Notes under the pieces: model-generated
What the model saw: the letters and a program-made list of their open reading frames with translations, nothing else
The model's database searches: none
Told to the model about the DNA's origin: nothing
Part shown: positions 35,367-64,000 of the stretch, piece after piece
Numbering within the stretch: position 1 is the first letter of the stretch
Layout: every line of letters begins with the position of its first letter
Assembly: GCA_964571255.1 (NCBI GenBank)
Contig: CAZNAA010000001.1
Coordinates: 423,674 to 487,673, forward strand
DNA length: 64,000 bases
Direction of reading: 5' to 3'
Origin: an uncultured Gammaproteobacteria bacterium
GTDB lineage: Bacteria; Patescibacteriota; Microgenomatia; Levybacterales; UBA12049
Position numbers and translations under genes: made by a program

Positions 35367-37310
35367 TTACAATTTTATCTTAAGTTCTGTATCGGTGAGG
35401 AGTTTGAATGGATCTCCACTTCGTCCTTTAACAACGGTTGTATACTCTGGCTCATCACTTCCTGGTTGTTTCTGGATCAGTACAGGAACTTCAGTTCCGT
35501 TAGGAACCGTGAAAGGAAGTTTATAAGCTATAGTGATCTTGGCTTTTCCTTCTGGTCTGACGGTTAAGAATCCTTCAATAACGGTTTTTCCAAGTTCCTC
35601 ATAGGACAGGAGTTTTACTTGAGAGCCTTTGGACTTATCTTGAATAATTTCACTACCTTTGGGAACATAGAGTCTGAGCCAGTTTCTGTTTTCTGCATTC
35701 AAACACAAATCTCCTCTTTCTAAGTTACAACCTGAATGAGGTTGAGGATTTTCGTATTCAATTGTTACTGTTTTAATAATACTGTCCCCTTCTCTTTCAT
35801 ATTTATTCTCTACTTTTTGAGTAATAAAGAGATTTGATTTTGCTCCAGCAAAGTTGACATCATTAATATGTAAATAGTCTCCCTTGTCTTCAAAATCTTG
35901 AATTCGTCCTGCTGCATTTAGAGCTTCTACTCCTTGCTGAGCATCTTTATTGAAAAGATAAAACATCACGTGTTTTTGTTGTGCTTGAGTTAAACCTGAT
36001 TGAATGAGAGGCCCCCAATATTCTTTCGGAGATGAAGAAAGAGCTTTTTTCATGATTGCCTGGAGTAATTCTCCCAATAGTCCTTTTCGGTTTGTTTTAA
36101 TATAGTTCACTGGACGAGAGATATTATCCTCTAGCTCATAAATTACTTGAGGACAAGCATCCCAACATCGTGGATCTGGTTTAGTATTAAAAGTTAATCC
36201 ACCAGCACTTACCTCGTCATCCAATATTTTAATAGTTGAGACAAGAATATGGGTATCAAGAGCAATGATTCCATCAATGGCTACTTCTTGAGGAGATTTC
36301 TGATACATTTCATAAAAAGTCTTCATTGATTCAACGTAATCTGGGGACAAGTTACTATCTCTTAGATTAAAGGTAGATACTTTTGGAAGATATTGAGCAA
36401 TAGGACGAGGAGCTTTTGTTTTTGGAATCGTATTATCAAGAGCGTAAATATCCTCAGATTTGTCAACAAAAATATTTCCTTTATCTACTCTGAAAATGGC
36501 ATATGCTGTAATAAATCCACCTGTTGCCCGAAGTTCTGCATCATTTTGGAAGAGAACTAAGTATTTTTTCTCTTTTTTCTCTCCTAGTAACTCAGGAAGA
36601 ACTTTTACCAAAGGCCGTGCATCATTAACAAACGTTACTCCTTGATCTGTCAAGTCTCGAAGAAGAGTTAATTGCGTTTGTACTCTTTCTCCAAAAATCA
36701 ATTTAGGATAGTGTTTTGGGTTTACTTGATTTACTTCACTCTTAACAGTGTCTAAATGCTTAGCAATATCATCAATTCGTGGAGTAATCTTTCCTAATGT
36801 TAATACAGCAGTTCTAATTCTATCTTCTGCTGAACCTCCAACAAAGCTTCCTCCACCTTTTAATCCTAATACATCAGCATAAGGCTCTAAAGCTTTTATA
36901 GCAATTTCGGCACTATCTAGTCCGGCCGCTCCTGCCTTCATCATATGATCAGCATCGTTGTAATAGAAGTTAGCAACTGGAATAAGTTTTAAATAAAACA
37001 TAGATCCAAGTTTTTTCTGAGTATCAGAAAGAGCTACTTTGGTTTTTTGTAATTCAGTTGAGGCAAGACTAATATCTTGTTGTTTTAAGGCAGCAGAGAG
37101 GACTTTCGCTTGACGATAGGTAGTAATACCAGATTTATACAAAGCAAATGCTTGCATTCCAGTAAGTACACCAAATAACCCAAGAACGACAATTACTCCG
37201 ATTAAAATTTTCGTTGCTTTTTTAGATAATCTAAATTTTGATCGTCGCTTTGTCATAGGTGAGCTTATCTGGGTATCTTCAGGGGCATCTAGAACCTCAA
37301 TTTTTTCCAT
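35367..37310 (-). CDS. Large N-terminally anchored exported protein of unknown function (possibly DUF4012-like)
   Basis: 647 aa with a basic cytoplasmic N-terminus and one TM segment (ILIGVIVVLGLFGVLTGMQAFALY), followed by a ~580-aa ectodomain. The DUF4012 assignment is from memory only. Confidence 0.35.
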   Translation of the reverse strand: MEKIEVLDAPEDTQISSPMTKRRSKFRLSKKATKILIGVIVVLGLFGVLTGMQAFALYKSGITTYRQAKVLSAALKQQDISLASTELQKTKVALSDTQKKLGSMFYLKLIPVANFYYNDADHMMKAGAAGLDSAEIAIKALEPYADVLGLKGGGSFVGGSAEDRIRTAVLTLGKITPRIDDIAKHLDTVKSEVNQVNPKHYPKLIFGERVQTQLTLLRDLTDQGVTFVNDARPLVKVLPELLGEKKEKKYLVLFQNDAELRATGGFITAYAIFRVDKGNIFVDKSEDIYALDNTIPKTKAPRPIAQYLPKVSTFNLRDSNLSPDYVESMKTFYEMYQKSPQEVAIDGIIALDTHILVSTIKILDDEVSAGGLTFNTKPDPRCWDACPQVIYELEDNISRPVNYIKTNRKGLLGELLQAIMKKALSSSPKEYWGPLIQSGLTQAQQKHVMFYLFNKDAQQGVEALNAAGRIQDFEDKGDYLHINDVNFAGAKSNLFITQKVENKYEREGDSIIKTVTIEYENPQPHSGCNLERGDLCLNAENRNWLRLYVPKGSEIIQDKSKGSQVKLLSYEELGKTVIEGFLTVRPEGKAKITIAYKLPFTVPNGTEVPVLIQKQPGSDEPEYTTVVKGRSGDPFKLLTDTELKIKL

Positions 37311-37347
37311 ATATCCATCATATCCAAGGACGTTTTACTTTGTCAAA

Positions 37348-38013
37348 TTAATGAGCACCTCTTCCTGACAGAATAGCTAATGGAGTTTTAATCATAAGAT
37401 ATATATCATACCAGAATGAGCGTCTTTTTACATATTCAGCATCCATTTCAATCCGTTTATCAAAGTTAATTTGAGATCGACCCGAGACTTGCCAAAACCC
37501 AGTGAGACCAGGTTTTACTGATAACACAATTTTTACCGCATCTTTCGTATGAGGATATTTGTTCTGTTGCTCTTTAAGCTCGTCAGGATAATAGGCTCGT
37601 GGTCCTACGACACTCATTTCTCCTCTAATCACATTCACAAATTGAGGTATCTCATCAATCGAGTACTTTCGAATAAACTTTCCTACCCTGGTAACACGAG
37701 GATCATTAATTAACTTATAACTTCCTTTCTTATAATCTGCATAAAGCTTGGCAAATTCAGGATCTTCTCTTAAGAGAAGATGTGCATTTTGAATCATAGA
37801 ACGAAATTTATACATTTTAAATAATCGCCCACTTCTCCCCACTCGTTCAGGAGTATCTGCAAACACAGGACCTTCAGAATTCAATTTAATAGCTAAGGCT
37901 ACAAGGAGGAGGAGCGGAGAAAAGACGATGAGAAAAGCAGCAGCGAATGTGATATCCACTACTCTTTTCAATACTTCATAAATTGGATGTTTTTTGATAA
38001 CTGTGTATTCCAT
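37348..38013 (-). CDS. Polyprenyl-phosphate sugar-1-phosphate transferase (Bac_transf / WbaP C-domain type)
   Basis: Motifs PVFADTPERVGRSGRLFKMYKFRSM and KPGLTGFWQVSGRS; 221 aa with one N-terminal TM segment. Confidence 0.85.
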   Translation of the reverse strand: MEYTVIKKHPIYEVLKRVVDITFAAAFLIVFSPLLLLVALAIKLNSEGPVFADTPERVGRSGRLFKMYKFRSMIQNAHLLLREDPEFAKLYADYKKGSYKLINDPRVTRVGKFIRKYSIDEIPQFVNVIRGEMSVVGPRAYYPDELKEQQNKYPHTKDAVKIVLSVKPGLTGFWQVSGRSQINFDKRIEMDAEYVKRRSFWYDIYLMIKTPLAILSGRGAH

Positions 38014-39089
38014 TAGGCTAAATTTTCAAATTTAGTACCTTTTAAACCTTCAACAAATTTTTTTATTTTAGGAACAGAGGTTTTAGGACAAACCAGTAAG
38101 ACATCTTCTGTATTAATAACTAAGAGCTCGTCTAAATCAAGACCAACTACTAATTTTTCTGGTTGATAGTTAAATACTAAGGTATCCCGTGAGTCCTGAA
38201 CGACGATATTTCCCTGTGTTACATTCTCTTCAACAGAATTACTTAATGCCTCTTTTAGAGCTTCCCAAGCTCCTACATCAGCCCATTCAATATCATCAAC
38301 AATGACTAACGCGTCAGATTTATCAATCCGCTCTGGAATAATGTTATCAAAATGAAGCTTTGGCATTTCTTTATAATAGGTATCCAACGCTTTTTGAATA
38401 TGTGGTGCATTTACGATTTTCTGAGCAATTGCATATACTTCAGGCTCATACTCTTTGGTTTTTTCTAAGACAAATTGGGGAGTTGTTGCAAAGTATCCTA
38501 AGTTCCAACAATAGTTACTATCTTTAAACCACTCCTGTGCAACTGGTCTAGTGGGACGATACTTAAATCCTGCAAATTCTCTAAAAATCACATCGTTTTT
38601 CTCCTCAACTGCAACTCCTGTATGGATCCATCCCAGGTTTTCAGAAGCAAATCGAGGTTTGTGTCCAATAAAAATCATTTTGTTTGGATCATTTTCTAAC
38701 CTTTTTCCAGCCTGAATAACAATATTTTTAAACTTTTTTTCATTTTTAATGATATGATCACTCCACAAAATAGCAACTGGTTCTAGAGGATGTTCTTTAG
38801 CTAGAAGTGCCATAGCATAAATAACCGCAGCTCCTACATCTCGCCTCTCAGGTTCTCCAATAATATTTTCTTTTGGGATTTTGGGGAGTTGTTCAATAAC
38901 AAGATCTACATATCTTTTCTCAGTCGCAATATAAATATCAGCATACTCAAATTCAGGGATAAGACGCTCAACTGCTAATTGAAGCATTGATTTGTCACCA
39001 ACTATTCTTTCAAATTGTTTTGGAGATTTCTCTCGAGAAAGAGGCCATAACCTACTTCCTACTCCTCCTGCAAAAATAACTACTCTCAT
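38013..39089 (-). CDS. Mannose-1-phosphate guanylyltransferase-like NDP-sugar pyrophosphorylase
   Basis: N-terminal G-loop VVIFAGGVGSRLWPLSREKSPKQF, ManC-like, 358 aa without a cupin isomerase domain. Confidence 0.7.
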   Translation of the reverse strand: MRVVIFAGGVGSRLWPLSREKSPKQFERIVGDKSMLQLAVERLIPEFEYADIYIATEKRYVDLVIEQLPKIPKENIIGEPERRDVGAAVIYAMALLAKEHPLEPVAILWSDHIIKNEKKFKNIVIQAGKRLENDPNKMIFIGHKPRFASENLGWIHTGVAVEEKNDVIFREFAGFKYRPTRPVAQEWFKDSNYCWNLGYFATTPQFVLEKTKEYEPEVYAIAQKIVNAPHIQKALDTYYKEMPKLHFDNIIPERIDKSDALVIVDDIEWADVGAWEALKEALSNSVEENVTQGNIVVQDSRDTLVFNYQPEKLVVGLDLDELLVINTEDVLLVCPKTSVPKIKKFVEGLKGTKFENLA

Positions 39090-40171
39090 ATATGTTTTTT
39101 TACTAAATTTTCAACTGTTGTTTTAAACTCTTCAAGAAATCTTCTTTCACTAAACTTTTCTGCATTCTTTTCTAACACTTTTGGATCATAAGTGAAAGTA
39201 TCGAATTTCTTAAGCGCATCAACTAAGCACGAAACCGTTTGCTTATCAAAAAACATTCCTGTTTTCCCTTCAACAATAGTTTCCAATGCTCCTCCTCCTC
39301 TGAAAGCTAAGACAGGTTTTCCAAGAAGCTGTGCTTCAAGGATGGTTATACCAAAATCTTCACTCCCCGGGAAAAGAAATCCCTTGCACTGTCTATAGTA
39401 CCCAACTACCTCTTCATCAGTCAAGTTACCTAGAAATTCTATGGTAGGTCCACTCATCCCTTTTAGCCTCTTTTCATCACTCCCACTTCCAATTATCTTT
39501 AAAGAAAATCCTAATTTATTGCACGCTTTTATAGCTAAATCGACCCGTTTATACGGAACAAGACGAGAAACAATTAGGTAATAGCCTTTTTCTTGAGGAA
39601 GAGGTGAGAGAGCACTCTTTGGTAATTCTACTGGTGGATAGATTAAAAGAGAATCTTGGTTGTAATACTCTTTTATTCTTTTCTGGACTTCTTTAGAAAT
39701 AGCAATATAAGAATGTGGCCTCGTCGAGGCAATCTTATCCCACCAACGCAAATAAGACACTGCTGGACTAAGAAGCATCCTTACTACTTTTTTGGGGAAG
39801 TATTCTTCATACCCACTCCATAAATATCTTGTTGGGGTAAGACAATAACAGAGATGGATGGTATTGGGCTTTGTAAGAATTCCTTTCCCTGCTTCACTCG
39901 TAATTGAAATAACAACATCATACTCATCAAAAGAAAAACTTTCAAAGACAATTGGCATAAGAGGAGCAAGTTTCTCATGAGAAGTTTTGGTGAAAGGAAG
40001 TTTTTGCAAAAAAGATGGAAAAACGATAAATACGTTGGCCCACGAAGCACTTTGGGGATTATACACTGAGGTAAAAAGAGGAGCATCAGGAAAAAGTTTA
40101 TGAAGGGAAAGCAGGACCCTTTCAGCCCCTCCGAATTTATTTACCCTATCATAGACTAGCGCAACTTTCAT
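39086..40171 (-). CDS. GT4-family glycosyltransferase
   Basis: GT-B fold with C-terminal EDFGITILEAQLLGKPVLAFRGGGALE (E-x7-E region). Confidence 0.7.
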   Translation of the reverse strand: MKVALVYDRVNKFGGAERVLLSLHKLFPDAPLFTSVYNPQSASWANVFIVFPSFLQKLPFTKTSHEKLAPLMPIVFESFSFDEYDVVISITSEAGKGILTKPNTIHLCYCLTPTRYLWSGYEEYFPKKVVRMLLSPAVSYLRWWDKIASTRPHSYIAISKEVQKRIKEYYNQDSLLIYPPVELPKSALSPLPQEKGYYLIVSRLVPYKRVDLAIKACNKLGFSLKIIGSGSDEKRLKGMSGPTIEFLGNLTDEEVVGYYRQCKGFLFPGSEDFGITILEAQLLGKPVLAFRGGGALETIVEGKTGMFFDKQTVSCLVDALKKFDTFTYDPKVLEKNAEKFSERRFLEEFKTTVENLVKKHI

Positions 40172-41261
40172 ATGCTTCTTTTGTCAAACGTGCCATCTCC
40201 TTCCAAGAAAAAAGAGAAAGTCTTTTCTTTCCTTTCTCTTTATAGTTATTTTTTTCTTTAGAAGAAAGTGAGTTCCATTCTAGCATAGTCTTAGTTATTT
40301 CTTTCGGATTATTCGGTTCAAAATACAGTGCTCCGTCCGCAATTACTTCTTTAAAGGCAGTAATATGTGAAAGCAAAGGAACTGTTCCATTCGCAATAGC
40401 TTCAAGTGGAGGAAGACCAAAACCTTCTTGAATAGATGAAGAGATATAGGCATCAGCACTTTTATACAAAGAAGATAGATCTGTATCAGTTACTTCATGG
40501 AGAAAATGAATATCTTTTCTTTTGTACTGAGATTCTTTTTGAAGTTGGGTATAGAAAAAATCTTCCTTCCCAACGAGTACTAAAGAGTTTTTTCCTTTTT
40601 GCTTTTTATATTGGAGAAATGCTTCTAAAAGAGTTTCTAAATTTTTATGTGGATACGCATTTCCCACATATAAGAAAAAAGAGCCATATTTACTTATTTT
40701 TTCCTGGCCCTTCGTAACAGAGAAGTCCACACCTTCTTTAGTCACTATAATTTTTTCGTTTTTTAAGGAAAAAGTATTTACAAGATCATCTTTTACACAC
40801 TGAAGTGGAACAAGTATTTTTTCAGATCTTTTCAAACCATGTCTTAATACTCTACCAAAGAAGAATCTTTTCACCTTATACATGGGAAGGGGAAGAGTTG
40901 AAGCTTTTCCTGTATCAAAATGATGAATAATCAAATCGTGGATGGTTATAATAAAAGGTTTGCGATACAAAACAGGAAGTGAAAAATAAGGAAAGTGCAT
41001 AATATCAAGTGGATGAAGATACAGATCATTGAGAAACTGCGTTTGTTCAGAAAGTGAGTGCCAGTGAGATGAAACAGGAATGACTCTCCATTTGTGTTTC
41101 CGAGAGGTTATGACTTTCTCAATTGCTTCTTTGTCTTTTGGAAGAGAAAAAAGGTAATATTCATTTTCTAAATCAATTCGAGTTAATTCTGTAATTAAAT
41201 TTCGAATATATCTTCCAACCCCCGTCTCACTCCATAACCTAGTATCAATTCCAATTTTCAT
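40149..41261 (-). CDS. GT4-family glycosyltransferase
   Basis: N-terminal KIGIDTRLWSETGVGRY, C-terminal QEGFGLPPLEAIANGTVP. Confidence 0.7.
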   Translation of the reverse strand: MKIGIDTRLWSETGVGRYIRNLITELTRIDLENEYYLFSLPKDKEAIEKVITSRKHKWRVIPVSSHWHSLSEQTQFLNDLYLHPLDIMHFPYFSLPVLYRKPFIITIHDLIIHHFDTGKASTLPLPMYKVKRFFFGRVLRHGLKRSEKILVPLQCVKDDLVNTFSLKNEKIIVTKEGVDFSVTKGQEKISKYGSFFLYVGNAYPHKNLETLLEAFLQYKKQKGKNSLVLVGKEDFFYTQLQKESQYKRKDIHFLHEVTDTDLSSLYKSADAYISSSIQEGFGLPPLEAIANGTVPLLSHITAFKEVIADGALYFEPNNPKEITKTMLEWNSLSSKEKNNYKEKGKKRLSLFSWKEMARLTKEAYESCASL

Positions 41262-43051: not shown

Positions 43052-43053
43052 AC

Positions 43054-57288: not shown

Positions 57289-58532
57289 TTTTTCTTTTTT
57301 ATGTTTACTTTTGCTATCATATTTCTTCCTCTTGCAATAAAAGGTTGTTCAATTAACTTCTCACTCATGGTACTTACCAGGAGAGTAATAAGAAATATGG
57401 AAATAAATCTAAGATATTCATTTCCTAGAGGTATAAGAGTGAAAAAAGCAATAATTAATAAATGAAATAAGTAGAACGAATAACTAATTTTTCCTATATG
57501 TAGAATGAACTTATTCTCAAAAACCACTCTTACCAAAACTCCTCCTTCTAAACATGCGAAAATTAATACCATAGTAAAAAGAGAAAGGAAAAGATCGGGT
57601 AGTAAGATTGTGCTATTAATATATAAACCTAGTAGTACAAGAAGAAAAAAGATTGAGGAATTTTGAATGATCTGTTTATTTATATTTTTTTTAACTAACG
57701 ATAACATTTTTTGCTGAAAAAAAAGGACATAGGCAAAAAGACTAAGTCCAATGACCCAAAAAATTCTTTGTTCCGTAGACAGTGCTTTTAAGATATAGAT
57801 GAAGATTCCACTGGTAACTACTACAGAGAATATATGTTTAAAATTGGGAAAGATAGAAATAATTTTTCCACGTGTAGGTTTTATCATATATGCTAGTATT
57901 CCCATACAATAAACTGCTAAATATGTTTCAATAGCCCAGTCCCCTCCCCCTAATCGTATTTGATAAATCGGTAACTCAACAGTTCTATTCAGATAAAAAA
58001 ACACTCCCATCCCAAGTAAACCAACAAGGAATAAACTATACTTTCTTGCCAAAAAGAAAATAAAAGGAATAACCAAATAGTAAAAGAACTCTAAAGGGAT
58101 AGTCCACTCTACACCCAGCAAACTATTTTGATATCTTTGATTAAGAATACTAAAAAAAGTGAGATGATAAAAAAGATTGGCAAAGTCAAAAGTTGAAAGT
58201 TGGAATAGATTTTTATAATAGGCAGCCAAAGGTAAAAATCCTCCTAATAAAAAACAAATAATCATAACAAAGTAGTACAACGGAACAATTCTGAGAATTC
58301 TTTTTTTTAGATATACTCTAAAATCAAATAGTTTTGACCTATCAATACTCATACACAGCGTAAAGGCTGAGATAATAAAAAATACTGTTACTCCATATTT
58401 CCCAAAATTTACTAATTTATCAGAAAACGAATTGATATTTCCCAGGAAGGTTCCTGCATGAATGAGAAACACAAAAAGTGCGGCATATCCCCGAAGACCA
58501 GTAATAAAAGCTAATGTTTCTTTCTGTTCCAT
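57285..58532 (-). CDS. Acyltransferase family 3 (OatA/OafA-like) membrane O-acyltransferase
   Basis: N-terminal FITGLRGYAALFVFLIHAG..., 10-11 TM segments, 415 aa. Confidence 0.75.
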   Translation of the reverse strand: MEQKETLAFITGLRGYAALFVFLIHAGTFLGNINSFSDKLVNFGKYGVTVFFIISAFTLCMSIDRSKLFDFRVYLKKRILRIVPLYYFVMIICFLLGGFLPLAAYYKNLFQLSTFDFANLFYHLTFFSILNQRYQNSLLGVEWTIPLEFFYYLVIPFIFFLARKYSLFLVGLLGMGVFFYLNRTVELPIYQIRLGGGDWAIETYLAVYCMGILAYMIKPTRGKIISIFPNFKHIFSVVVTSGIFIYILKALSTEQRIFWVIGLSLFAYVLFFQQKMLSLVKKNINKQIIQNSSIFFLLVLLGLYINSTILLPDLFLSLFTMVLIFACLEGGVLVRVVFENKFILHIGKISYSFYLFHLLIIAFFTLIPLGNEYLRFISIFLITLLVSTMSEKLIEQPFIARGRNMIAKVNIKKKK

Positions 58533-58534
58533 AC

Positions 58535-60715
58535 TTATTTCTTTTTTTTCTCTCTCCTTTGAACAAGATTATAAACTATATATATACCCAAACTAATAAG
58601 TGTAATTAAGGTAACTAACATTCCACTTAGTCTTTTTGCTTCAGGTTGAAAATAGAGGGTAAATTCAGCTGAAGTAGTACTATTCATTTGTCCTTGTTGA
58701 AAGATATCACTACGTGGATCAAGTATCCACCCATTGGCATACTCATTTGCATGTACTCTTTCAACAACAGCATTTCTTCTTCTCAAAAATAATAAGTCAT
58801 TTGTTCTAGTCAGATCTCCTGGATACAACCTCCACTTATCAGAATATGGAGTATTAAATACAAGCACTGTTTTTTCTGTTACTCCTTCAATTGTAATATG
58901 ATACTTTGCTGCAGATGTCTTCTTATAACTAATCTTATTATTTCCTGTCGATGAAAAAAGTTCTTTCTTTCCGATTTTATTTTCTTCTACCACTTTTTTA
59001 ATTTGATAAACAGAGATATCTTTCGAACGGTCAATCATTGACAAGTATCCTGGATCTTTAGGAGCAGTGTATCTTCCAATAAATGATAATCTTTCATCGT
59101 TATTTAAAATTTCATTTAACTCTTTAGCTGGTAACTCTAAATCTTCAAATTTATTATAGATAAGAATCGTATCAACTCCATAATGTGTTAATGTATCAAT
59201 AGCAGTAGGAGAAGTGATTTCTTTAATTTTCTGATAATATGCTCTGCTATTTTCGTCAGCAAACGGACTTAGACCGGCTGTAAGAGGTTTTTCATAAATA
59301 ATCTGCCCCATAAGTTGATAGGTTGGGGGAAATCCGTTATCACCATTATTCAATACTAAAGGATAAGCAGAAATTGCATGAATTTGTGAATTATCCTTTA
59401 GTGGACTATATAGTTTCTCTATTGAGGCAAAACTCGTGCTTTTATACCAACTCCCATCAGATGTTAAGGAAATAAAAATAACAAAGATTCCAAGAAGTAT
59501 AAAGATGGCATACGAAAACCATTTTGAAATACGAGTATAGAGAGGGGAATTCATGTAGTAGCTAATAGTTACTCCAAAAAGAAGACCTAAGAAAAGCGTA
59601 GTGTGAACATTAATTCTGGCAACACTCCGAAACATACTAAAAAATTTAAAGTAAATTTCATTAACAAAAAAGAGATTGGGCACATATGAAGAAAGAAGAA
59701 TTGAAAGCAAAAAACAGCTAAAAAGAGTGAGGAATAATCTTTTTTTTCTTAAGAAAATAAGTGACCCAATTAAAAAAAGAGTAAGAAGTCCACTAAAAAT
59801 GTGGCTATAGTTACCAAAATGAAAAAATAAATAACTATTTTCTGCCATGGAAAAATGATAAACAATATCAAGTAATTCATTTTGAGGAAGTGAGTTTCTT
59901 CCACTCAAAACTGCCTGTGATTTATTAAATAGGTAGAGATTAGAAAGAATGAAATTAATATTTAAGAGAAAAAATACAATAAACAAAGGGCTGTAGTAAG
60001 AGAAGAAAGTACCAATTTTTCTTTGGATTGCTTCTTTATGATAAAGCAGAATAATTGGTACTGTAAAAATTCCCGAGAAAAATGCATAGTAAGCGTCTGC
60101 TTTAAAAAGAAGTCCAAAAAGTGTTATGGAAAGAACTAACGAAAACATGTTTCTTCTATCTAAGTAATAAAACAATGAAAGAAAATAAAGAGGAATCATT
60201 TCAGTATGATTAATAGACATTTGTCCTCTCCCCCATAAAACAGTATTAAAAGAAAAGGCATATACTAATCCAGCAATAAAACTCCCTACTTTATTTCTTG
60301 TTAAGTAATAACAAAGAATACTTGCTCCTAAAGCAGAGAGTGGATATACCAAAAAAGAAGAGATATTAATAACTAAGATAAGATTATTCCACGAAAAACC
60401 CATGAGGTTAAGTATAAATACTTGAATTGTATAAATGAGATTAAATACCGGGGAAAAGGCAAGATCAAACCCAAAAGGATACCCTGTAAGATTAATAACG
60501 TCATAAACGTGCTGATGCTTATGAATATACGTTAAGAACCATTGGTACCATAATCCTCCTTCTGTATCAATGTCAGGCATTGCATAATGAGTAAAGAACA
60601 AGGGAATACGATGTTTAAATATGATAATTGTTATAAGAGAATAACTAAGAAATGAGAGGGTTATATAGAAAAGAGTATTATGCTTGCGTACGGTACTGTT
60701 TAAGTTTTTAACCAT
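58535..60715 (-). CDS. Large polytopic membrane protein, GT-C-like (YfhO/ArnT-like topology)
   Basis: 726 aa with ~12 TM segments, followed by a ~280-aa extracytoplasmic domain and a terminal TM segment. Confidence 0.4.
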   Translation of the reverse strand: MVKNLNSTVRKHNTLFYITLSFLSYSLITIIIFKHRIPLFFTHYAMPDIDTEGGLWYQWFLTYIHKHQHVYDVINLTGYPFGFDLAFSPVFNLIYTIQVFILNLMGFSWNNLILVINISSFLVYPLSALGASILCYYLTRNKVGSFIAGLVYAFSFNTVLWGRGQMSINHTEMIPLYFLSLFYYLDRRNMFSLVLSITLFGLLFKADAYYAFFSGIFTVPIILLYHKEAIQRKIGTFFSYYSPLFIVFFLLNINFILSNLYLFNKSQAVLSGRNSLPQNELLDIVYHFSMAENSYLFFHFGNYSHIFSGLLTLFLIGSLIFLRKKRLFLTLFSCFLLSILLSSYVPNLFFVNEIYFKFFSMFRSVARINVHTTLFLGLLFGVTISYYMNSPLYTRISKWFSYAIFILLGIFVIFISLTSDGSWYKSTSFASIEKLYSPLKDNSQIHAISAYPLVLNNGDNGFPPTYQLMGQIIYEKPLTAGLSPFADENSRAYYQKIKEITSPTAIDTLTHYGVDTILIYNKFEDLELPAKELNEILNNDERLSFIGRYTAPKDPGYLSMIDRSKDISVYQIKKVVEENKIGKKELFSSTGNNKISYKKTSAAKYHITIEGVTEKTVLVFNTPYSDKWRLYPGDLTRTNDLLFLRRRNAVVERVHANEYANGWILDPRSDIFQQGQMNSTTSAEFTLYFQPEAKRLSGMLVTLITLISLGIYIVYNLVQRREKKKK

Positions 60716-60779
60716 GTTTTTATTGTAACAAATACATATAGTGCTTTATAAATAAAATTATCATTATTTACATTTACCT

Positions 60780-61850
60780 CTACTTCCTTGCAACAACCTT
60801 TGATTCATCATAACTTTTTAGTAAAGGGTTATCACCTAGTATGTGACGAATAGTGTGATAAATAATAAGATTAGCAGTAAAAAAACTCAAAGGTAGATGA
60901 AAAATATAGAGAAAATTTCTTCTTGAGATAATTAAGGAAAGTGAATCATATAAACAAAAAATTATCGAATAAACATAAGGGAAGAAAAGGTATTTTTTTA
61001 TTTTACTTTCTTGATGATAAACTTCTCGCCCAGTGTAGCCTGCCTTTCCCATATAATCACTATGGTATATATTATTTTTCACTCTCCATCTAATTTTGTT
61101 TAAATATTTTTGCAAGGTATCTGACGAGTAATGAAGAAGAGCGTCATTTTTAGTAATAGCAATACATGAATTGGTTTTATTAAGAAGATAGAAAAAATGT
61201 GGGATAAGCTCTGCTGTTTTTACTGTTTGAGGAAATTTTTTCTTCATAAATGACGCATCAAACATACTTCCTCCAGCACACAGTTCAATAATAGGTGTTT
61301 GTTTTACAGATTGTAAGTTAAAGATACTATATTGTTCATTTTCTGTAATAACACCATAGCGTCTAACCATTTCTTTCAGAAAAAAATGATTATTCTTTGA
61401 AAGACGATAGATAAAAAAAGAGAAAGGATCTCCGAAATCATTAATATAATTATTAATAAATGGGTATCCACGAGGATTTTCGTATCCACTAACTAAAACA
61501 GCTTTTACCCTCTTCTCTTTTTCTAGACAAGAAACTTTATTTTTCAGACTATCAGGATTTTGGAGTACTTCATCATGATCAAGGTATAGGATGTATTTCC
61601 CTTTCGATCTAGTGTAACCTAAATACTTTGCGTGTAATGGTTCTGTTAGCGGATTTTTTATTATTTTACACTTGAATTTTTTCCCAAGTTTTAAGGTTGT
61701 ATCTGTAGATCCACCATCAACAAGAACAATTTCTAGTCTATTTTTAGGATAGGTTTGTTGTGATAATGCTTTAAGCACTAAAGGTAGTGTTCTAGCCGAA
61801 TTATAAGTTGCAATTACTACTGAAACAATAGGAAGCAAAGAGGTAGTCAT
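60780..61850 (-). CDS. GT2-family glycosyltransferase
   Basis: VSVVIATYNSARTLPLVLKALSQQTY...VLVDGGSTD...LDHDE. Confidence 0.75.
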   Translation of the reverse strand: MTTSLLPIVSVVIATYNSARTLPLVLKALSQQTYPKNRLEIVLVDGGSTDTTLKLGKKFKCKIIKNPLTEPLHAKYLGYTRSKGKYILYLDHDEVLQNPDSLKNKVSCLEKEKRVKAVLVSGYENPRGYPFINNYINDFGDPFSFFIYRLSKNNHFFLKEMVRRYGVITENEQYSIFNLQSVKQTPIIELCAGGSMFDASFMKKKFPQTVKTAELIPHFFYLLNKTNSCIAITKNDALLHYSSDTLQKYLNKIRWRVKNNIYHSDYMGKAGYTGREVYHQESKIKKYLFFPYVYSIIFCLYDSLSLIISRRNFLYIFHLPLSFFTANLIIYHTIRHILGDNPLLKSYDESKVVARK

Positions 61851-61964: not shown

Positions 61965-63281
61965 TCACTTATTACCTTTAGAAAGATATATGTCCCTAAT
62001 AGAAATTGTTACATTAAAAGCAAGGAGAATAATTATTGTATATAAAGGAAGAATTCCTCTATTCCCAATAACAGTCCCATGATAAAACGCAGAAAAAAGA
62101 ACATAGGTAATACTTCCTATCCAAAGAGGAATAAAAATTGACTCTCTCCTGAATTGCTTTATACACAATGCTGGAGAAATAATAAATCCTAAAAGGATAA
62201 TTGTATTAAGTGGTTTTTCTAATAGTTTTAAAAATCCCATTACATCATTTTTGTTCCATTGAAAGGTGGGATCAAGAAAGAGAGATGCTATAGATATTCT
62301 GAATTGATTTAATACCAACTTTGGATGAGTTAACATATACTCTCTAGTTCGTTTTGCAATTTCTTTATTAAAAGTTACATATGCTACTCCTACTGGTACA
62401 TTCTTTTTCAGTTGGTCTTGCATATATTTTTCTCCTGCTTTATCTATGTGAATCCAAGCAACTAGTTTATTTGTTTCTGCATTTGGAAAAAGGGAAAAGT
62501 AAGTATATTCGTTAAGTAATTGGGATTCAGAAGCTGTTGAAATCGCAAGAGACTTAGTAATAGTATAGTTTCTGCCAACCCATACCACTAAGAGAATTAC
62601 AAAACTTACTACTAATCCAAGAAAAACTCTTGAATAACGATCAAGTTTTCTTTTCTTTATGAGTGGGAGCAATGGAAATAAAAGGACAGGAAGAATAAAA
62701 AGTAATGTATTTTGACGACTAAAAATAGCCCCTACTCCGAAAAAAAAAGTTAAAAAGATTATTTTTCTAGACATTTCTTTTTTATATAGTAAGACCGCAT
62801 AGTATACAAATCCTGTTACCATTGCATAAGAAAAAAGATCTACATTTCCCATCCGGGTTGTATAGAAAAGAAGAGAGGGACTTAACAGAATAAGAAGTAA
62901 TGGAAATAAAGCATCTTTTTTGAAAAATAATAAGAAAAGTTTATATGAGTAAGCATGAATGAGGAAAATAAAAGCTATATTATAAATTACTAATAAAGTT
63001 GACTCGCTATATATCGTTCTCCCTGCAGTTAAGAGTAATGAGAAAGCTGGAAGTCGCATTGTTTCTGGAATATATTGCCCTTCTTTAGGAGGGAGAAAAT
63101 AGAGATTAGATACTTTTTGAGCAGAATATCCATTTCCACTTAGTAAACTATTTGAATAATCCATATATTGATCCATATCTTGCCCACACCACTCTTTCTG
63201 CATGCAAGAATCTTGGACGTAATAGTAGATAACTGAGGAATATACTAAAAGAAGGATAGCGAGGAGAAGTTTATTTGGCAT
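61965..63281 (-). CDS. GT-C-like polytopic membrane glycosyltransferase
   Basis: 438 aa with >=10 TM segments. The extracytoplasmic N-terminal loop has acidic residues (QDSCMQKEWCGQDMDQYMDY). Confidence 0.45.
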   Translation of the reverse strand: MPNKLLLAILLLVYSSVIYYYVQDSCMQKEWCGQDMDQYMDYSNSLLSGNGYSAQKVSNLYFLPPKEGQYIPETMRLPAFSLLLTAGRTIYSESTLLVIYNIAFIFLIHAYSYKLFLLFFKKDALFPLLLILLSPSLLFYTTRMGNVDLFSYAMVTGFVYYAVLLYKKEMSRKIIFLTFFFGVGAIFSRQNTLLFILPVLLFPLLPLIKKRKLDRYSRVFLGLVVSFVILLVVWVGRNYTITKSLAISTASESQLLNEYTYFSLFPNAETNKLVAWIHIDKAGEKYMQDQLKKNVPVGVAYVTFNKEIAKRTREYMLTHPKLVLNQFRISIASLFLDPTFQWNKNDVMGFLKLLEKPLNTIILLGFIISPALCIKQFRRESIFIPLWIGSITYVLFSAFYHGTVIGNRGILPLYTIIILLAFNVTISIRDIYLSKGNK

Positions 63282-64000
63282 GGTAAGGTTGTTTAAAGAA
63301 ACGATAAATATTCTTTATTATTTCTTCATGCTCTTCAGGAGTAAGATTATAAAAGAGAGGAAGCCTGACTAGCGTATCTGAGACAGTATCAGTTACATTC
63401 ATATCTCCAACAAATCTCCCATACTTCTTTCCCGCTGGGGAGGAATGAAGCGGAATGTAGTGAAAAACCGAGAGAATATTATATTTCTTTAAGTATTCAA
63501 TTAATTTTGTTCTCGTTTTAAGAGAATCAACTAATATATAGTACATATGTCCGTTGTGCTCACAATCTCGAGGGATAATAGGACGGCGCAGTAATCCTTT
63601 TTCTTCTAATGATTTTAATCCTTTATGATAGGTTTTCCAGACCTTAAGTCTCTGTTCATTTATCTCACTCGCATTTTCAAATTGTGCCATTAAGAAAGCG
63701 GCAATTATTTCACCTGGCAAATAGGAAGAGCCAATATCAACCCACGTATATTTATCTACTTGTCCCCTAAAAAATTTAGCTCTATTTGTCCCTTTCTCTC
63801 TTATCATTTCAGCTCGCTCACTAAATCTCTCTTCATTAATTACAAGAGCACCTCCTTCTCCTGATATAACATTTTTTGTTTCATGAAAACTAAATGCACT
63901 CATATGTCCAAGAGTTCCCAGATTTCGTCCTTTATAGGTTGATAAAAAACCTTGAGCAGCATCTTCCATTACAAGAAGATTATGTTTTTTTGCAATTTTA
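63271..64000 (-). CDS. DegT/DnrJ/EryC1/StrS-family PLP-dependent sugar aminotransferase (C-terminal part; N-terminus beyond the window)
   Basis: GTLGHMSAFSFHETKNVISGEGGALV matches the conserved FSFYPTKNLG...GEGG region. The ORF is still open at the window edge. Confidence 0.7.
   Translation of the reverse strand, partial: KIAKKHNLLVMEDAAQGFLSTYKGRNLGTLGHMSAFSFHETKNVISGEGGALVINEERFSERAEMIREKGTNRAKFFRGQVDKYTWVDIGSSYLPGEIIAAFLMAQFENASEINEQRLKVWKTYHKGLKSLEEKGLLRRPIIPRDCEHNGHMYYILVDSLKTRTKLIEYLKKYNILSVFHYIPLHSSPAGKKYGRFVGDMNVTDTVSDTLVRLPLFYNLTPEEHEEIIKNIYRFFKQPYHAK

What the first reader, a model, noticed from the sequence alone, without database searches (positions are those of the whole stretch)
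35367..64000. ~29 kb glycan-assembly supercluster dominated by GT-C membrane enzymes
Twenty-five consecutive genes, all but one on the minus strand, many overlapping by 4-60 nt. They are as follows.
- A large exported protein (35367).
- A Bac_transf priming phosphotransferase and a ManC-like GDP-sugar pyrophosphorylase.
- Six full-length GT4 genes (39086, 40149, 43054, 50142, 56116, plus an orphan GT4 N-domain at 51257).
- Five GT2 genes (42134, 48699, 52055 polyprenyl-P type, 60780; plus 7619 upstream).
- At least five large polytopic GT-C-like proteins (44229, 45685, 52999, 58535, 61965).
- A hexapeptide O-acetyltransferase, an acyltransferase-3 O-acyltransferase, and a DegT aminotransferase running off the end.
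This is the signature of a lipid-linked, extracytoplasmically elaborated glycan (S-layer or protein O-glycosylation, or a wall polysaccharide) with acetyl and amino-sugar modifications. A polyprenyl-P GT2 followed immediately by a GT-C protein (52055 then 52999) is the classic 'activate on lipid, transfer outside' pair. No Wzx flippase or Wzz/ABC exporter is recognisable in the window, which is unusual for a cluster of this size.
Basis: partly seen in the sequence, partly recalled or inferred. Interest (0 to 1): 0.6.

Follow-up and report, generated by a model that had tools for sequence, protein, structure and literature searches.

The report
Conserved CPR surface-glycan assembly locus
This is a real gene cluster of more than 29 kb for building a lipid-linked cell-surface sugar polymer in a candidate-phyla-radiation (CPR, Patescibacteria) bacterium; it is an ordinary kind of pathway, but half of it is conserved gene-for-gene across distant CPR genomes and several of its membrane enzymes belong to undescribed families.

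Summary
Window 35367-64000 carries 24 back-to-back genes, 23 on the minus strand. They are a Bac_transf priming enzyme, a ManC-like pyrophosphorylase, five GT4 genes plus a stand-alone GT4 N-domain, four GT2 genes, two acyltransferases, a WecE-like aminotransferase and five polytopic transferases.

I tested the GT-C claim:
- 58535 and 52999 have no Pfam match, but AlphaFold models (pLDDT 87 and 85) match only solved GT-C enzymes. The two families are homologous to each other.
- 44229 passes the Pfam PMT_2 threshold. 61965 falls just below it.
- 45685 is a Wzy_C (O-antigen ligase or polymerase, GT-C-B class) protein with an extra polytopic half of unknown family.

New findings:
- The locus has two modules. 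Module A (35367-53017) keeps its gene order in four divergent CPR contigs, so it is core, not a strain island.
- Module B (52999 onward) is patchy and lower in GC. Its DegT-GT2-GT-C trio recurs in Acidovorax O-antigen-like loci.
- The cluster runs about 7 kb past the window end.
- A conserved 79-aa membrane gene (51819-52058) had been missed.
- No Wzx, MurJ or ABC gene lies in the locus in six genomes.

This is a known kind of pathway with new family members.

The parts
35367..37310 (-). DUF4012 protein, 647 aa. One N-terminal TM with the rest predicted outside. Last gene of module A. Role unknown.
   Evidence: Pfam DUF4012, 80 bits. TM prediction. Homologue at 60% identity in the same position in L020; a DUF4012 gene also holds that position in L023.
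37348..38013 (-). Small monotopic phosphoglycosyltransferase (Bac_transf, 221 aa). It is the priming enzyme that puts a sugar-1-phosphate on the polyprenyl phosphate carrier.
   Evidence: Pfam Bac_transf, 205 bits. NCBIfam EPS_sugtrans and WbaP C-terminal domain, 243-255 bits. 65-69% identical in L019 and L020.
38013..39089 (-). ManC-like mannose-1-phosphate guanylyltransferase (358 aa), without the isomerase domain.
   Evidence: Pfam NTP_transferase plus ManC beta-helix. TIGR01479, 210 bits, covering profile positions 3-348 of 467.
39086..41261 (-). Two GT4 (GT-B) glycosyltransferases: 39086-40171 and 40149-41261.
   Evidence: Pfam Glycos_transf_1 with or without Glyco_transf_4. No TM. Conserved in L019 and L020; GT4 genes occupy the same positions in L022 and L023.
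41301..42137 (+). The only plus-strand ORF (278 aa, one TM, no family). A lineage-specific insertion, probably not part of the pathway.
   Evidence: No Pfam or NCBIfam match. Singleton cluster. Absent from L019, L020 and L023, where there is no gene between the flanking glycosyltransferase genes.
42134..44232 (-). GT2 (42134-43051) and GT4 (43054-44232) cytoplasmic glycosyltransferases.
   Evidence: Pfam. 52-56% identical in L019.
44229..45743 (-). PMT_2-type GT-C glycosyltransferase, 504 aa, about 11 TM.
   Evidence: Pfam PMT_2, 30.7 bits, above the cut-off of 26.1. Homologues in L020, L022 and L023 hit PMT_2 and PMT. Always directly downstream of the 1005-aa gene.
45685..48702 (-). 1005-aa polytopic protein. 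The N-terminal half is Wzy_C (O-antigen ligase, polymerase or O-oligosaccharyltransferase superfamily). The C-terminal half (about 495-1005, roughly 7 TM) has an invariant acidic loop motif VGDDFTWLRW and belongs to no known family.
   Evidence: Wzy_C, 29.7 bits. 30 of 33 homologues hit Wzy_C. More than 1800 homologues; the 120 listed are near full length, and the few that carry a name are all from CPR. The C-terminal half has no Pfam or PDB-sequence match. Weak colinear hhalign match to the GT-C family of 58535 (probability 19%, E 1.2e-3).
48699..50158 (-). GT2 (48699-49553) and a hexapeptide-repeat acetyltransferase (49541-50158, WcaF-like).
   Evidence: Pfam. NCBIfam WcaF family, 97 bits.
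50142..51835 (-). GT4 (50142-51260) preceded by a stand-alone GT4 N-domain protein (51257-51835, 192 aa).
   Evidence: Pfam. The pair is conserved as two separate genes in L005, L019, L020 and L023, so the short gene is not a pseudogene.
51819..52058 (-). Previously unlisted 79-aa membrane protein of about 3 TM. Its start overlaps the stop of 52055 (ATGA).
   Evidence: ORF. Conserved in L002 (91%), L019 (36%) and L005 (33%), with motif MKxQD...FFTAxR..YA. No Pfam match.
52055..53017 (-). GtrB/ArnC/PgfS-type polyprenyl-phosphate glycosyltransferase: a GT2 domain plus two C-terminal TM helices.
   Evidence: Pfam GT2, 118 bits. NCBIfam ArnC 172 bits and PgfS 145 bits. 29% identical to E. coli GtrB over 289 aa, E 5e-36. 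TM prediction.
52999..54984 (-). GT-C glycosyltransferase of an undescribed family (661 aa). It has a polytopic core, a beta-rich outside domain and a C-terminal TM anchor. First gene of module B.
   Evidence: AlphaFold pLDDT 85.2. Foldseek hits with E below 0.01 are all GT-C: AftD (E 9e-7), STT3, PglB, AglB, AftA, DPY19 and ArnT. Homologous to the 58535 family (hhalign 99.7%, E 2e-25). Invariant D31 in the first outside loop.
55046..56119 (-). 357-aa membrane protein of unknown family. It has an N-terminal TM, an outside domain of about 160 aa, and 4 C-terminal TM helices. It is a recurrent neighbour of the 661/726-type GT-C genes.
   Evidence: No Pfam or NCBIfam match. 874 representatives at 50% identity. 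Adjacent to GT-C genes in L002, L005 and L020; L023 has a 348-aa gene with no Pfam match in the same position. Not GtrA-like.
56116..57288 (-). GT4 glycosyltransferase, part of the mobile DegT-GT2-GT-C-GT4 sub-module.
   Evidence: Pfam. 39-58% identical next to 58535 homologues in L004-L007.
57285..58532 (-). Acyl_transf_3 membrane O-acyltransferase, 415 aa, about 9-10 TM.
   Evidence: Pfam, 73 bits. Truncated in the close relative L003.
58535..60715 (-). GT-C glycosyltransferase of an undescribed family (726 aa). It has the same plan as 52999. The acidic motif MPDxDT(D/E)GG lies in the first outside loop.
   Evidence: Only 33 clusters among 5.8 billion proteins, almost none with a Pfam hit. 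AlphaFold pLDDT 86.7. Foldseek: STT3 (E 7e-9), DPY19, AftD, PglB, AglB, AftA and ArnT. D50 is invariant and D48 and D52 nearly invariant (the window protein has Glu at 52).
60780..61850 (-). Soluble GT2 (356 aa), tightly linked to the DegT gene across phyla. It probably transfers the 4-amino-4,6-dideoxyhexose derivative.
   Evidence: Pfam GT2, 58 bits. 46-58% identical in L004-L007 and 42-44% in Acidovorax, Paracidovorax and Chitinimonas, always near DegT and a 58535 homologue.
61965..63281 (-). Probable PMT_2-type GT-C (438 aa, polytopic).
   Evidence: PMT_2, 23.5 bits, below the cut-off of 26.1. The L002 orthologue has a weak PMT_2 hit. TM prediction.
63271..64000 (-). C-terminal roughly two-thirds of a WecE-like dTDP-4-amino-4,6-dideoxyhexose aminotransferase. 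The gene runs off the window.
   Evidence: Pfam DegT, 144 bits, profile positions 143-359 of 360. NCBIfam NF008687, 355 bits. The full 382-aa gene is present in L002.

Best explanation
The locus makes a polyprenyl-linked heteroglycan of the CPR cell envelope. The product is most likely a conserved wall-associated polysaccharide, a functional counterpart of a secondary cell wall polymer or 'common antigen'. Assembly has two stages.

**Stage 1, cytoplasmic face (module A).**
- The small Bac_transf enzyme (37348) loads a sugar-1-phosphate onto the carrier.
- Four GT4 enzymes (one paired with a stand-alone GT4 N-domain protein) and two GT2 enzymes extend it. Donors include GDP-mannose from the ManC-like enzyme.
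- A hexapeptide transferase acetylates it.

**Flipping.** The lipid-PP-oligosaccharide is flipped by a protein that has not been identified.

**Stage 2, outer face.**
- The Wzy_C half of the 1005-aa protein (45685) polymerises the unit or ligates it to its acceptor.
- The GtrB/ArnC-type GT2 (52055) makes polyprenyl-P-monosaccharide.
- The GT-C enzymes (44229, 52999, 58535, 61965) use such donors to add side-chain sugars outside.
- The Acyl_transf_3 protein O-acylates the product.

**Module B.** This part (52999 onward) is an accessory decoration unit. It includes a conserved trio of a WecE-like aminotransferase, a soluble GT2 and a GT-C. The trio introduces a 4-amino-4,6-dideoxyhexose derivative.

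**Shown versus inferred.** Enzyme families and folds, gene order and conservation are shown. Sugar identities, the order of steps, the acceptor and the flipping step are inferred.
For: - **Families.** Pfam and NCBIfam assignments for 17 of the 24 genes, with whole-protein E-values from 4e-7 to 6e-61.
- **GT-C fold.** Two confident models for 58535 and 52999. Every Foldseek hit with E below 0.001 is a GT-C enzyme. An invariant Asp sits in the first outside loop of each family: D50 in the 58535 family and D31 in the 52999 family.
- **Donor synthase.** 52055 resembles GtrB, ArnC and PgfS and has two predicted C-terminal TM helices.
- **Wzy_C.** Detected in 30 of 33 homologues of 45685, which NCBI names 'O-antigen ligase family protein' in Levybacteria, Parcubacteria and Patescibacteria.
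- **Conservation of module A.** The same gene order is kept in L019, L020, L022 and L023, which carry copies of the 1005-aa protein only 41-47% identical to the window's. The other module A proteins are 39-69% identical in L019 and L020. RecO follows the cluster in L020 and L023, as in the window. A conserved gene set argues for a conserved glycan rather than a serotype-variable one.
- **Module B in a known setting.** In Acidovorax the sub-module sits in an O-antigen-like locus with Wzx, a GNAT acetyltransferase, Gmd and ManC.
- **Precedent.** Multi-component transmembrane glycosylation systems combine a GT-A polyprenyl-P synthase, a flippase that is often encoded elsewhere, and a GT-C. Wzx/Wzy-type wall polysaccharides decorated by such systems are established in Gram-positive bacteria (PMC8035078).
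Against: - No flippase (MOP/Wzx, MurJ, ABC or GtrA-type), no chain-length regulator and no LCP-type wall ligase was found in the locus in the window or in five relatives.
- The Wzy_C hit in the window protein is below Pfam's threshold, and its catalytic residues were not mapped.
- Nothing in the sequence identifies the acceptor. A protein or a lipid acceptor is equally allowed by the enzyme set.
- Sugar specificities are unknown.
- The claim of conservation rests on four relatives chosen through one protein family.
Confidence: 0.55

Rival explanations
1. The locus is a general protein O-glycosylation system. The lipid-PP-oligosaccharide built by module A would be transferred en bloc to Ser/Thr of pilins, S-layer proteins or other surface proteins. 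The Wzy_C protein would act as a PglL/PilO-type O-oligosaccharyltransferase. The PMT_2-type GT-Cs would act like protein O-mannosyltransferases.
For: - PglL and PilO O-oligosaccharyltransferases belong to the same Wzy_C family as WaaL (PMC3643930).
- The locus has a small PglC-like priming enzyme, an aminotransferase and an acetyltransferase, as pgl loci do.
- 52055 scores 145 bits against PgfS of the streptococcal Pgf protein-glycosylation system.
- CPR rely on type IV pili, and their pilins are predicted to be O-glycosylated (10.1101/2024.11.25.624915).
- A highly conserved transferase fits a conserved protein acceptor.
Against: - No pilin or S-layer gene lies in or beside the locus in any of the six genomes.
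- Nine cytoplasmic glycosyltransferases plus four GT-C enzymes is far more than known O-glycosylation loci need.
- The aminotransferase is WecE-like (dTDP-sugar) rather than PglE/PglC-like.
Confidence: 0.25
2. The locus is two independent pathways that merely lie side by side. Module A would make one conserved glycan. Module B would be a separately acquired system that makes or decorates a different surface molecule.
For: - Module B has lower GC: 0.30-0.33 against 0.34-0.37.
- Its distribution is patchy. L019 and L022 lack the DegT-GT2-GT-C trio within 10 kb.
- The trio occurs without module A in L004, L006 and L007 and in Betaproteobacteria.
Against: - The two modules abut with overlapping genes (52999 and 52055 overlap by 19 nt).
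- The GT-C 52999 depends on a donor that the adjacent module A gene 52055 is best placed to make.
- L005, L020 and L023 also join 661/726-type GT-C genes directly to module A.
Confidence: 0.3
3. The locus makes a lipoglycan built mainly outside the membrane, as lipomannan, lipoarabinomannan and arabinan are in mycobacteria. A glycolipid or short primer would be extended sugar by sugar by the several GT-C enzymes from polyprenyl-P donors, so no oligosaccharide flippase would be needed.
For: - The best structural match of 52999 is the mycobacterial arabinofuranosyltransferase AftD.
- There are four to six GT-C enzymes per locus, including the 497-aa polytopic protein in L002.
- ManC, a polyprenyl-P GT2 and PMT_2-type GT-Cs parallel the actinobacterial GDP-Man, Ppm1 and GT-C route (established knowledge).
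- No Wzx or ABC gene is present.
Against: - A Bac_transf priming enzyme plus nine soluble glycosyltransferases implies a substantial cytoplasmic lipid-PP-oligosaccharide, which must still be flipped.
- Only one polyprenyl-P synthase gene is evident.
- The Wzy_C domain uses lipid-PP-linked donors (PMC10920833).
Confidence: 0.1

Closest known systems
Multi-component (three-component) transmembrane glycosylation systems: GtrA/GtrB/GtrC, CsbB/GtcA/YfhO, GacI/J/K/L, ArnC/ArnE-F/ArnT
   Same: A membrane-anchored GT2 makes polyprenyl-P-sugar (52055: 29% identical to E. coli GtrB, 172 bits to ArnC). An adjacent polytopic GT-C transfers the sugar outside. Several GT-C enzymes share one locus. The flippase is not encoded next to the pair, as in B. 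subtilis and L. lactis (PMC8035078).
   Different: The GT-C enzymes 52999 and 58535 match neither YfhO nor PMT_2 in Pfam. They carry a C-terminal TM anchor after the outside domain. No GtrA-type gene is recognisable (hhalign 0.1% for 55046). Two extra conserved membrane proteins (357 aa and 79 aa) of unknown role accompany them.
Wzx/Wzy-dependent heteropolysaccharide pathways (O-antigen, enterobacterial common antigen, B. anthracis secondary cell wall polysaccharide)
   Same: Both have a polyprenyl-phosphate priming transferase, a run of GT-A and GT-B enzymes, acetyl and amino-sugar tailoring including a WecE-like transaminase, and a Wzy_C-family membrane enzyme.
   Different: There is no Wzx, no chain-length regulator and no LCP ligase in the locus. 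The Wzy_C domain is fused to a second polytopic half of about 500 aa. Gene content and order are conserved across distant genomes, unlike serotype-variable O-antigen loci.
Mycobacterial AftD, AftA and Emb arabinosyltransferases, and the STT3/PglB/AglB and DPY19 GT-C enzymes
   Same: These are the best structural matches of the two modelled proteins. They share a polytopic core with an acidic first outside loop, followed by a soluble outside domain. The solved enzymes have a comparable outside 'dome' domain (PMC10154233).
   Different: Sequence identity is 9-16%. There are no carbohydrate-binding-module arrays as in AftD. No WWD-type oligosaccharyltransferase motif was looked for or seen. The genomic context is a polysaccharide locus in a CPR genome.
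PglL/PilO O-oligosaccharyltransferases and the WaaL O-antigen ligase (Pfam Wzy_C, CAZy GT121, GT-C-B class)
   Same: The N-terminal half of 45685 hits Wzy_C at residues 223-427, with a long loop between TM helices. Homologues are annotated as O-antigen ligase family.
   Different: It is twice the size (1005 aa). The score is below Pfam's threshold in this protein. There is no match to the WaaL sequence in the PDB, even with a family profile. CPR have no lipid A-core acceptor.

Membership tests
GT-C fold glycosyltransferases, subclass A (lipid-P-sugar or oligosaccharyltransferase type): 58535 and 52999 | Polytopic membrane core of 8-14 TM helices | tested here: met
   Hydropathy scan finds 8-11 TM. 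The AlphaFold models show about 13 membrane-length helices plus a C-terminal anchor.
GT-C fold glycosyltransferases, subclass A (lipid-P-sugar or oligosaccharyltransferase type): 58535 and 52999 | Fold similarity to solved GT-C enzymes | tested here: met
   Foldseek against the PDB. For 58535, all 23 hits with E of 0.001 or less are GT-C (best is STT3, 6.8e-9). For 52999, all 15 such hits are GT-C (best is AftD, 9e-7).
GT-C fold glycosyltransferases, subclass A (lipid-P-sugar or oligosaccharyltransferase type): 58535 and 52999 | Conserved acidic residue or residues in the first extracytoplasmic loop | tested here: met
   In the 58535 family D50 is invariant and D48 and D52 nearly invariant, in the motif MPDVDTDGG. 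In the 52999 family D31 is invariant, in GGDWPY. Both follow TM1, which has a positively charged N-terminus.
GT-C fold glycosyltransferases, subclass A (lipid-P-sugar or oligosaccharyltransferase type): 58535 and 52999 | Membership of a described sequence family (YfhO, PMT_2, AftD/DUF3367, DUF6541) | tested here: not met
   No Pfam or NCBIfam family at E of 0.01 or less. Only 3 of 81 homologue clusters carry a precomputed hit (PF20176, PF10131, PF11847).
GT-C fold glycosyltransferases, subclass A (lipid-P-sugar or oligosaccharyltransferase type): 58535 and 52999 | Use of a polyprenyl-phosphate-linked sugar donor | not testable with these tools
   Inferred only, from the fold and from the adjacent GtrB-type gene.
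PMT_2 (GT39/GT83-like GT-C): 44229 and 61965 | Pfam PMT_2 score at or above the curated cut-off of 26.1 bits | tested here: inconclusive
   44229 scores 30.7 bits (met). 61965 scores 23.5 bits (not met).
Wzy_C / O-antigen ligase-polymerase superfamily (GT-C-B): 45685 | Pfam Wzy_C score at or above the curated cut-off of 31.7 bits | tested here: inconclusive
   The window protein scores 29.7 bits, below the cut-off. However, 30 of 33 homologues hit at E of 0.1 or less (best 8e-9), and most carry a precomputed PF04932 hit.
Wzy_C / O-antigen ligase-polymerase superfamily (GT-C-B): 45685 | Conserved Arg residues that bind Und-PP and a catalytic His in the long outside loop (WaaL R191, R265, H313; PMC10920833) | not tested
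   Invariant Arg, His and Asp residues exist (R237, R280, R379, H190, D409). They could not be aligned to WaaL, because no PDB-sequence match was obtained.
Wzx/Wzy-dependent pathway | Polyprenyl-phosphate priming transferase plus cytoplasmic glycosyltransferases | tested here: met
   Bac_transf at 205 bits, five GT4 and three soluble GT2.
Wzx/Wzy-dependent pathway | MOP-family Wzx flippase in the locus | tested here: not met
   No Polysacc_synt or MVIN hit in the window, L002, L019, L020, L022 or L023. By contrast, Acidovorax L013 has Polysacc_synt_3.
Wzx/Wzy-dependent pathway | Chain-length regulator (Wzz/PCP) | tested here: not met
   No such Pfam hit. The role of DUF4012 is unknown.
Multi-component transmembrane glycosylation system | Membrane-linked GT-A that makes polyprenyl-P-sugar | tested here: met
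   For 52055: GT2 at 118 bits, ArnC 172 bits, PgfS 145 bits, 29% identity to GtrB (E 5e-36), and two C-terminal TM helices. Activity itself was not tested.
Multi-component transmembrane glycosylation system | GtrA-type (or Wzx-type) flippase for the lipid-P-sugar | tested here: not met
   No GtrA Pfam hit. The 55046 family against E. coli GtrA gives hhalign probability 0.1%. The 79-aa protein has no family.
Multi-component transmembrane glycosylation system | GT-C transferase encoded beside the GT-A | tested here: met
   52999 overlaps 52055 by 19 nt and has the GT-C fold.
ABC-transporter-dependent polysaccharide export | Wzm/Wzt-type ABC transporter | tested here: not met
   No ORF in the window has both a Walker A motif and the ABC signature. 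No ABC Pfam hit in the related loci.

The most novel reading that the evidence does not exclude
Module A may encode a CPR-wide envelope-glycan pathway whose central enzyme is a natural fusion of two lipid-linked-sugar transferase modules. One module is a Wzy_C (GT-C-B) domain that handles lipid-PP-oligosaccharide. The other is a minimal module of about 7 TM helices, GT-C-A-like, with an outside acidic loop (VGDDFTWLRW). The pathway would dispense with a classical Wzx or ABC flippase. Flipping, or donor hand-over, would be done by one of the conserved uncharacterised membrane proteins in the locus: the C-terminal half of 45685, the 357-aa family or the 79-aa family.
Probability: 0.15. Interest if true: 0.65.

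Novelty: new member of a known kind. Interest (0 to 1): 0.4.

Why it matters
CPR bacteria are a large share of bacterial diversity, live attached to other cells, and have an almost unstudied surface chemistry. The literature calls glycosylation in Saccharibacteria unexplored (10.1101/2024.11.25.624915). Predicted EPS genes are essential or confer a growth deficit when inactivated in the one Tn-seq study (PMC10633639).

Part of this locus is kept gene-for-gene in distant CPR genomes, next to RecO and in the same window as the cell-division and cell-wall (dcw) cluster. That makes it a good candidate for the main non-peptidoglycan envelope polymer of these organisms.

It also supplies concrete targets:
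- two GT-C families with confident models but no Pfam family;
- a 1005-aa Wzy_C fusion with more than 1800 homologues;
- two conserved membrane proteins of unknown role.

In kind, however, it is a familiar lipid-linked glycan pathway.

Tried and rejected
- **55046 as a GtrA-like flippase.** A profile of 35 homologues against E. coli GtrA (YfdG) gave hhalign probability 0.1%. Rejected for lack of evidence.
- **The 79-aa protein as DUF2304.** A comparison with the Acidovorax DUF2304 protein gave no similarity. A Pfam scan at E up to 10 gave only noise.
- **ABC exporter by motif scan.** None found. The LSGGQ in 52999 is part of its own conserved GGQ motif.
- **PDB sequence searches.** Searches with 58535, 52999, 44229, 61965, both halves of 45685 (single sequence and family profile), DUF4012 and the 55046 profile found nothing meaningful.
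- **hhalign between GT-C groups.** Only 52999 against 58535 is significant. The C-terminal half of 45685 against the 58535 family is weak (19%). All other pairs are below 6%.
- **Fusion partners of 55046 homologues.** Only TIG or methyltransferase domains turned up, which is uninformative.
- **Reaching past the window end on the source contig.** Look-ups with 61965 and 60780 returned only short Logan contigs. I used the 89% identical L002 instead.
- **Rfam and tRNA scans.** Nothing in the window.
- **Promoter and terminator scans.** Counts did not clearly exceed those in shuffled sequence.
- **Literature.** No paper describes this locus.

Full report
**1. The observation**

From 35367 to the window end there are 22 minus-strand ORFs of at least 100 aa, packed with overlaps of 4-59 nt, and one plus-strand ORF (41301-42137).

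The only sizeable 'gap' (51835-52055) is not empty. It holds a 79-aa membrane-protein gene at 51819-52058. Its start overlaps the stop of 52055, and it is conserved in L002, L019 and L005. The count is therefore 24 genes.

Pfam confirms the domain calls:
- DUF4012 (35367), Bac_transf (37348) and NTP_transferase plus ManC beta-helix (38013).
- Five full-length GT4 genes (39086, 40149, 43054, 50142, 56116) and a GT4 N-domain alone (51257).
- Four GT2 genes (42134, 48699, 52055, 60780).
- A hexapeptide transferase (49541), Acyl_transf_3 (57285) and DegT (63271, truncated by the window end).

Minus-strand orientation is a feature of almost the whole window, so it says little about the cluster itself.

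The region is not an assembly artefact. Three independent Logan contigs match it at 99.97-100%, and an ENA contig is colinear with 50933-64000 at 89%.

**2. Source organism and setting**

The 1005-aa protein is identical to a protein on a 772,860-bp NCBI contig. Its more than 1800 homologues are named, where named at all, 'O-antigen ligase family protein' of Levybacteria, Parcubacteria or 'Patescibacteria group'. The window has 30-43% GC.

Upstream in the window lies a dcw cluster with FtsZ, FtsA, MurG, FtsW, MraY, MurA, Mur ligases and a PBP. A class-II aminoacyl-tRNA synthetase follows; its L020 homologue carries a GlyRS insertion domain. RecO then directly abuts the glycan cluster. The organism is a CPR/Patescibacteria bacterium. 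I could not name it more precisely.

**3. Are the big membrane proteins GT-C enzymes?**

- **44229** passes the Pfam PMT_2 threshold (30.7 against 26.1 bits).
- **61965** falls just short (23.5 bits).
- **52999 and 58535** match nothing in Pfam. In NCBIfam only 52999 has a hit, far below its cut-off. Neither matches any PDB sequence.

I collected their homologues: 33 and 48 clusters only among 5.8 billion proteins, nearly all without Pfam hits. I aligned them and modelled both proteins. Mean pLDDT was 86.7 and 85.2.

Foldseek against the PDB returned only GT-C enzymes at significant E-values:
- For 58535: STT3 (6.8e-9), DPY19, AftD, PglB, AglB, AftA and ArnT.
- For 52999: AftD (9e-7), STT3, PglB, AglB, AftA, DPY19 and ArnT.

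The two families are homologous to each other (hhalign 99.7%, E 2e-25, 529 columns). They share one plan: a polytopic core, a beta-rich outside domain of about 220 aa and a C-terminal TM anchor. Each keeps an invariant Asp in the first outside loop, in the motifs MPDVDTDGG and GGDWPY. That is where GT-C enzymes place their catalytic carboxylate (PMC10154233). They are not transporters.

**4. The 1005-aa protein**

45685 is different. Its N-terminal half is Wzy_C: 29.7 bits here, below the cut-off, but detected in 30 of 33 homologues. That family holds O-antigen ligases, some polymerases and O-oligosaccharyltransferases (PMC3643930). It is now classed as GT-C fold, subclass B, with lipid-PP-oligosaccharide donors (PMC10920833).

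Its C-terminal half (about 495-1005) has roughly seven TM helices and invariant motifs (VGDDFTWLRW, FFYRPG). It has no Pfam or PDB-sequence match.

The only lead is weak. A colinear hhalign match to the start of the 58535 family (probability 19%, E 1.2e-3) lines up the acidic loop motifs.

**5. The lipid-activation pair**

52055 has a GT2 domain and two predicted C-terminal TM helices. It scores 172 bits against ArnC and 145 against PgfS. It is 29% identical to E. coli GtrB over 289 residues (E 5e-36). It overlaps the GT-C gene 52999 by 19 nt.

**6. Two modules**

Look-ups of four divergent homologues of the 1005-aa protein (41-47% identical) gave loci L019, L020, L022 and L023. Gene order there is, with minor gaps and insertions, that of window 35367-53017:

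polyprenyl-P GT2, [79-aa], GT4 N-domain, GT4, hexapeptide transferase, [GT2], Wzy_C protein, PMT_2, GT4, [GT2], GT4, GT4, ManC, Bac_transf, DUF4012.

RecO follows in L020 and L023, as in the window. Protein identities, measured in L019 and L020, are 39-69%. This is module A. It is a core, syntenic CPR locus, not a strain-variable island.

Module B runs from 52999 to the window end and beyond. It contains the two fold-defined GT-C genes, the 357-aa membrane protein, a GT4, Acyl_transf_3, a GT2, the weaker PMT_2 and DegT. It has lower GC (0.30-0.33) and a patchy distribution.

Within module B, the set DegT, soluble GT2 and 58535-type GT-C (plus a GT4) recurs in other low-GC MAGs (L004-L007). At 30-33% identity for the GT-C and 42-44% for the GT2, it also recurs in Acidovorax, Paracidovorax and Chitinimonas. 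In Acidovorax L013 it sits among ManC/PMI, a polyprenyl-P GT2, DUF2304, a GNAT acetyltransferase, a Wzx flippase, Gmd and an epimerase. That is an O-antigen-like locus.

The DegT is WecE-like: 355 bits to the dTDP-4-amino-4,6-dideoxygalactose transaminase model. The trio therefore most likely introduces a 4-amino-4,6-dideoxyhexose derivative.

**7. Beyond the window**

L002 and L003 carry orthologues 85-99% identical at the protein level. They show that the cluster continues for about 7 kb past position 64000. That stretch holds the rest of DegT, a methyltransferase, a metallophosphoesterase (opposite strand), an ATP-grasp enzyme and an epimerase/dehydratase. It also holds a further 497-aa polytopic protein with an N-terminal YDDAYITYRYA motif and no Pfam match, a UDP-GlcNAc 2-epimerase-type gene and another epimerase/dehydratase.

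**8. The missing flippase**

No MOP/Wzx or MurJ Pfam hit appears in the Pfam-scanned ORFs of the window or in the roughly 20-23 kb loci L002, L019, L020, L022 and L023. No ABC transporter or GtrA-type gene appears there either. One locus (L022) has an EamA/DMT transporter nearby.

The absence is therefore a stable property of the locus, not an effect of the window edge. GtrA-type flippases are often encoded elsewhere and shared between systems (PMC8035078).

It remains unexplained for the lipid-PP-oligosaccharide implied by a priming transferase and nine soluble glycosyltransferases. Either the flippase is elsewhere in the genome, or one of the uncharacterised conserved membrane proteins does the job.

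**9. Mechanism**

I commit to a two-stage model.
- On the cytoplasmic face, Bac_transf, the GT4 and GT2 enzymes and the acetyltransferase assemble a lipid-PP-oligosaccharide.
- An unidentified protein flips it.
- The Wzy_C domain polymerises it or ligates it.
- GT-C enzymes decorate it outside from polyprenyl-P-sugars made by 52055. Acyl_transf_3 then O-acylates it.

Because module A is conserved in content and order across distant genomes, the product is more likely a conserved wall-associated polymer than a variable capsule or O-antigen.

The main rival is protein O-glycosylation, with the Wzy_C protein as a PglL-like transferase. No target gene is linked, but nothing excludes it. A lipoglycan built outside by GT-C enzymes is a weaker rival. 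Sugar identities, the acceptor and the order of steps are inference.

**10. Comparison and verdict**

The nearest known systems are:
- Wzx/Wzy-type wall or O-polysaccharide pathways combined with multi-component transmembrane glycosylation (PMC8035078);
- at the fold level, the AftD, STT3 and DPY19 group of GT-C enzymes.

The locus fails the membership tests for a complete Wzx/Wzy pathway (no Wzx, no chain-length regulator) and for a complete three-component system (no GtrA). Its two modelled GT-C proteins belong to no described sequence family.

These are differences of membership, not of kind. I rate it a new member of a known kind. It is of moderate interest because it looks like the conserved envelope-glycan locus of a poorly understood bacterial radiation. 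DUF4012 enrichment in CPR had been noted (PMC6744442), but I found no description of this locus.

Noticed in passing
window 51819-52058 (-): A 79-aa membrane protein gene of about 3 TM lies in the apparent 220-bp gap. Its start overlaps the stop of the polyprenyl-P GT2 gene (ATGA). It is conserved in L002 (91%), L019 (36%) and L005 (33%) and has no known family. Its size and position recall GacJ, the 3-TM helper of GacI (PMC8035078), but that similarity was not tested.
   Followed up: partly
window 51257-51835 (-): The GT4 N-domain-only ORF is kept as a separate gene of about 180-192 aa in front of a full-length GT4 in L002, L005, L019, L020 and L023. It is therefore a conserved stand-alone protein, not a pseudogene. 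Its role is unknown; it may be a partner subunit.
   Followed up: partly
window 41301-42137 (+): The only plus-strand ORF (278 aa, one TM, no family, singleton cluster) sits between two glycosyltransferase genes. The relatives L019, L020 and L023 have no gene between the corresponding genes, so it is a lineage-specific insertion. L022 has a different insertion (MerR, GntR and a 174-aa gene) one gene further along.
   Followed up: partly
L003 12184-13399 (corresponds to window 57285-58532): In one close relative (89.6% nt identity) a small indel truncates the Acyl_transf_3 gene to 221 aa. O-acylation therefore appears to vary between near-identical strains.
   Followed up: partly
window 55046-56119 (-), and L002, L005, L020, L023: The 357-aa membrane protein family (874 representatives at 50% identity, no Pfam) lies next to 661/726-type GT-C genes in L002, L005 and L020. 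L023 has a 348-aa gene with no Pfam match in the same position. It may be an acceptor-binding or accessory partner. A few homologues are fused to TIG or methyltransferase domains.
   Followed up: partly
L002 1538-3031 (about 4-5 kb beyond the window end): A further 497-aa polytopic protein with an N-terminal YDDAYITYRYA motif and no Pfam match. It is possibly a sixth GT-C-type enzyme of the cluster.
   Followed up: partly
window 54000-64000: GC falls to 0.30-0.33, against 0.34-0.37 in the rest of the cluster. This coincides with the patchily distributed module B.
   Followed up: partly
window 7619-11181 (+): A second small sugar-related group on the opposite strand: a GT2, a 513-aa nucleotidyltransferase-domain protein, a SIS-domain isomerase and a 190-aa unknown. 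It is possibly a nucleotide-heptose or similar precursor route.
   Followed up: no
window 4790-5920 (+): A 376-aa protein with a class-A-type Beta-lactamase2 domain (139 bits) in a CPR genome, between IleRS/RodA and the sugar mini-cluster.
   Followed up: no
L005, L006, L007, L008, L009 (record titles): These loci have 34-42% GC and hold homologues of the window's module B genes; L005 also holds a homologue of the 1005-aa protein. They carry titles such as 'uncultured Gammaproteobacteria', 'Vitreimonas' and 'Desulfurococcales archaeon'. Either the labels or bins are wrong, or the module has moved widely.
   Followed up: no
window 37317-37346 (-): An 11-of-12 match to the sigma-70 consensus lies in the 38-bp gap before the DUF4012 gene. 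Overall promoter-like counts do not exceed shuffles, so its meaning is unclear.
   Followed up: no
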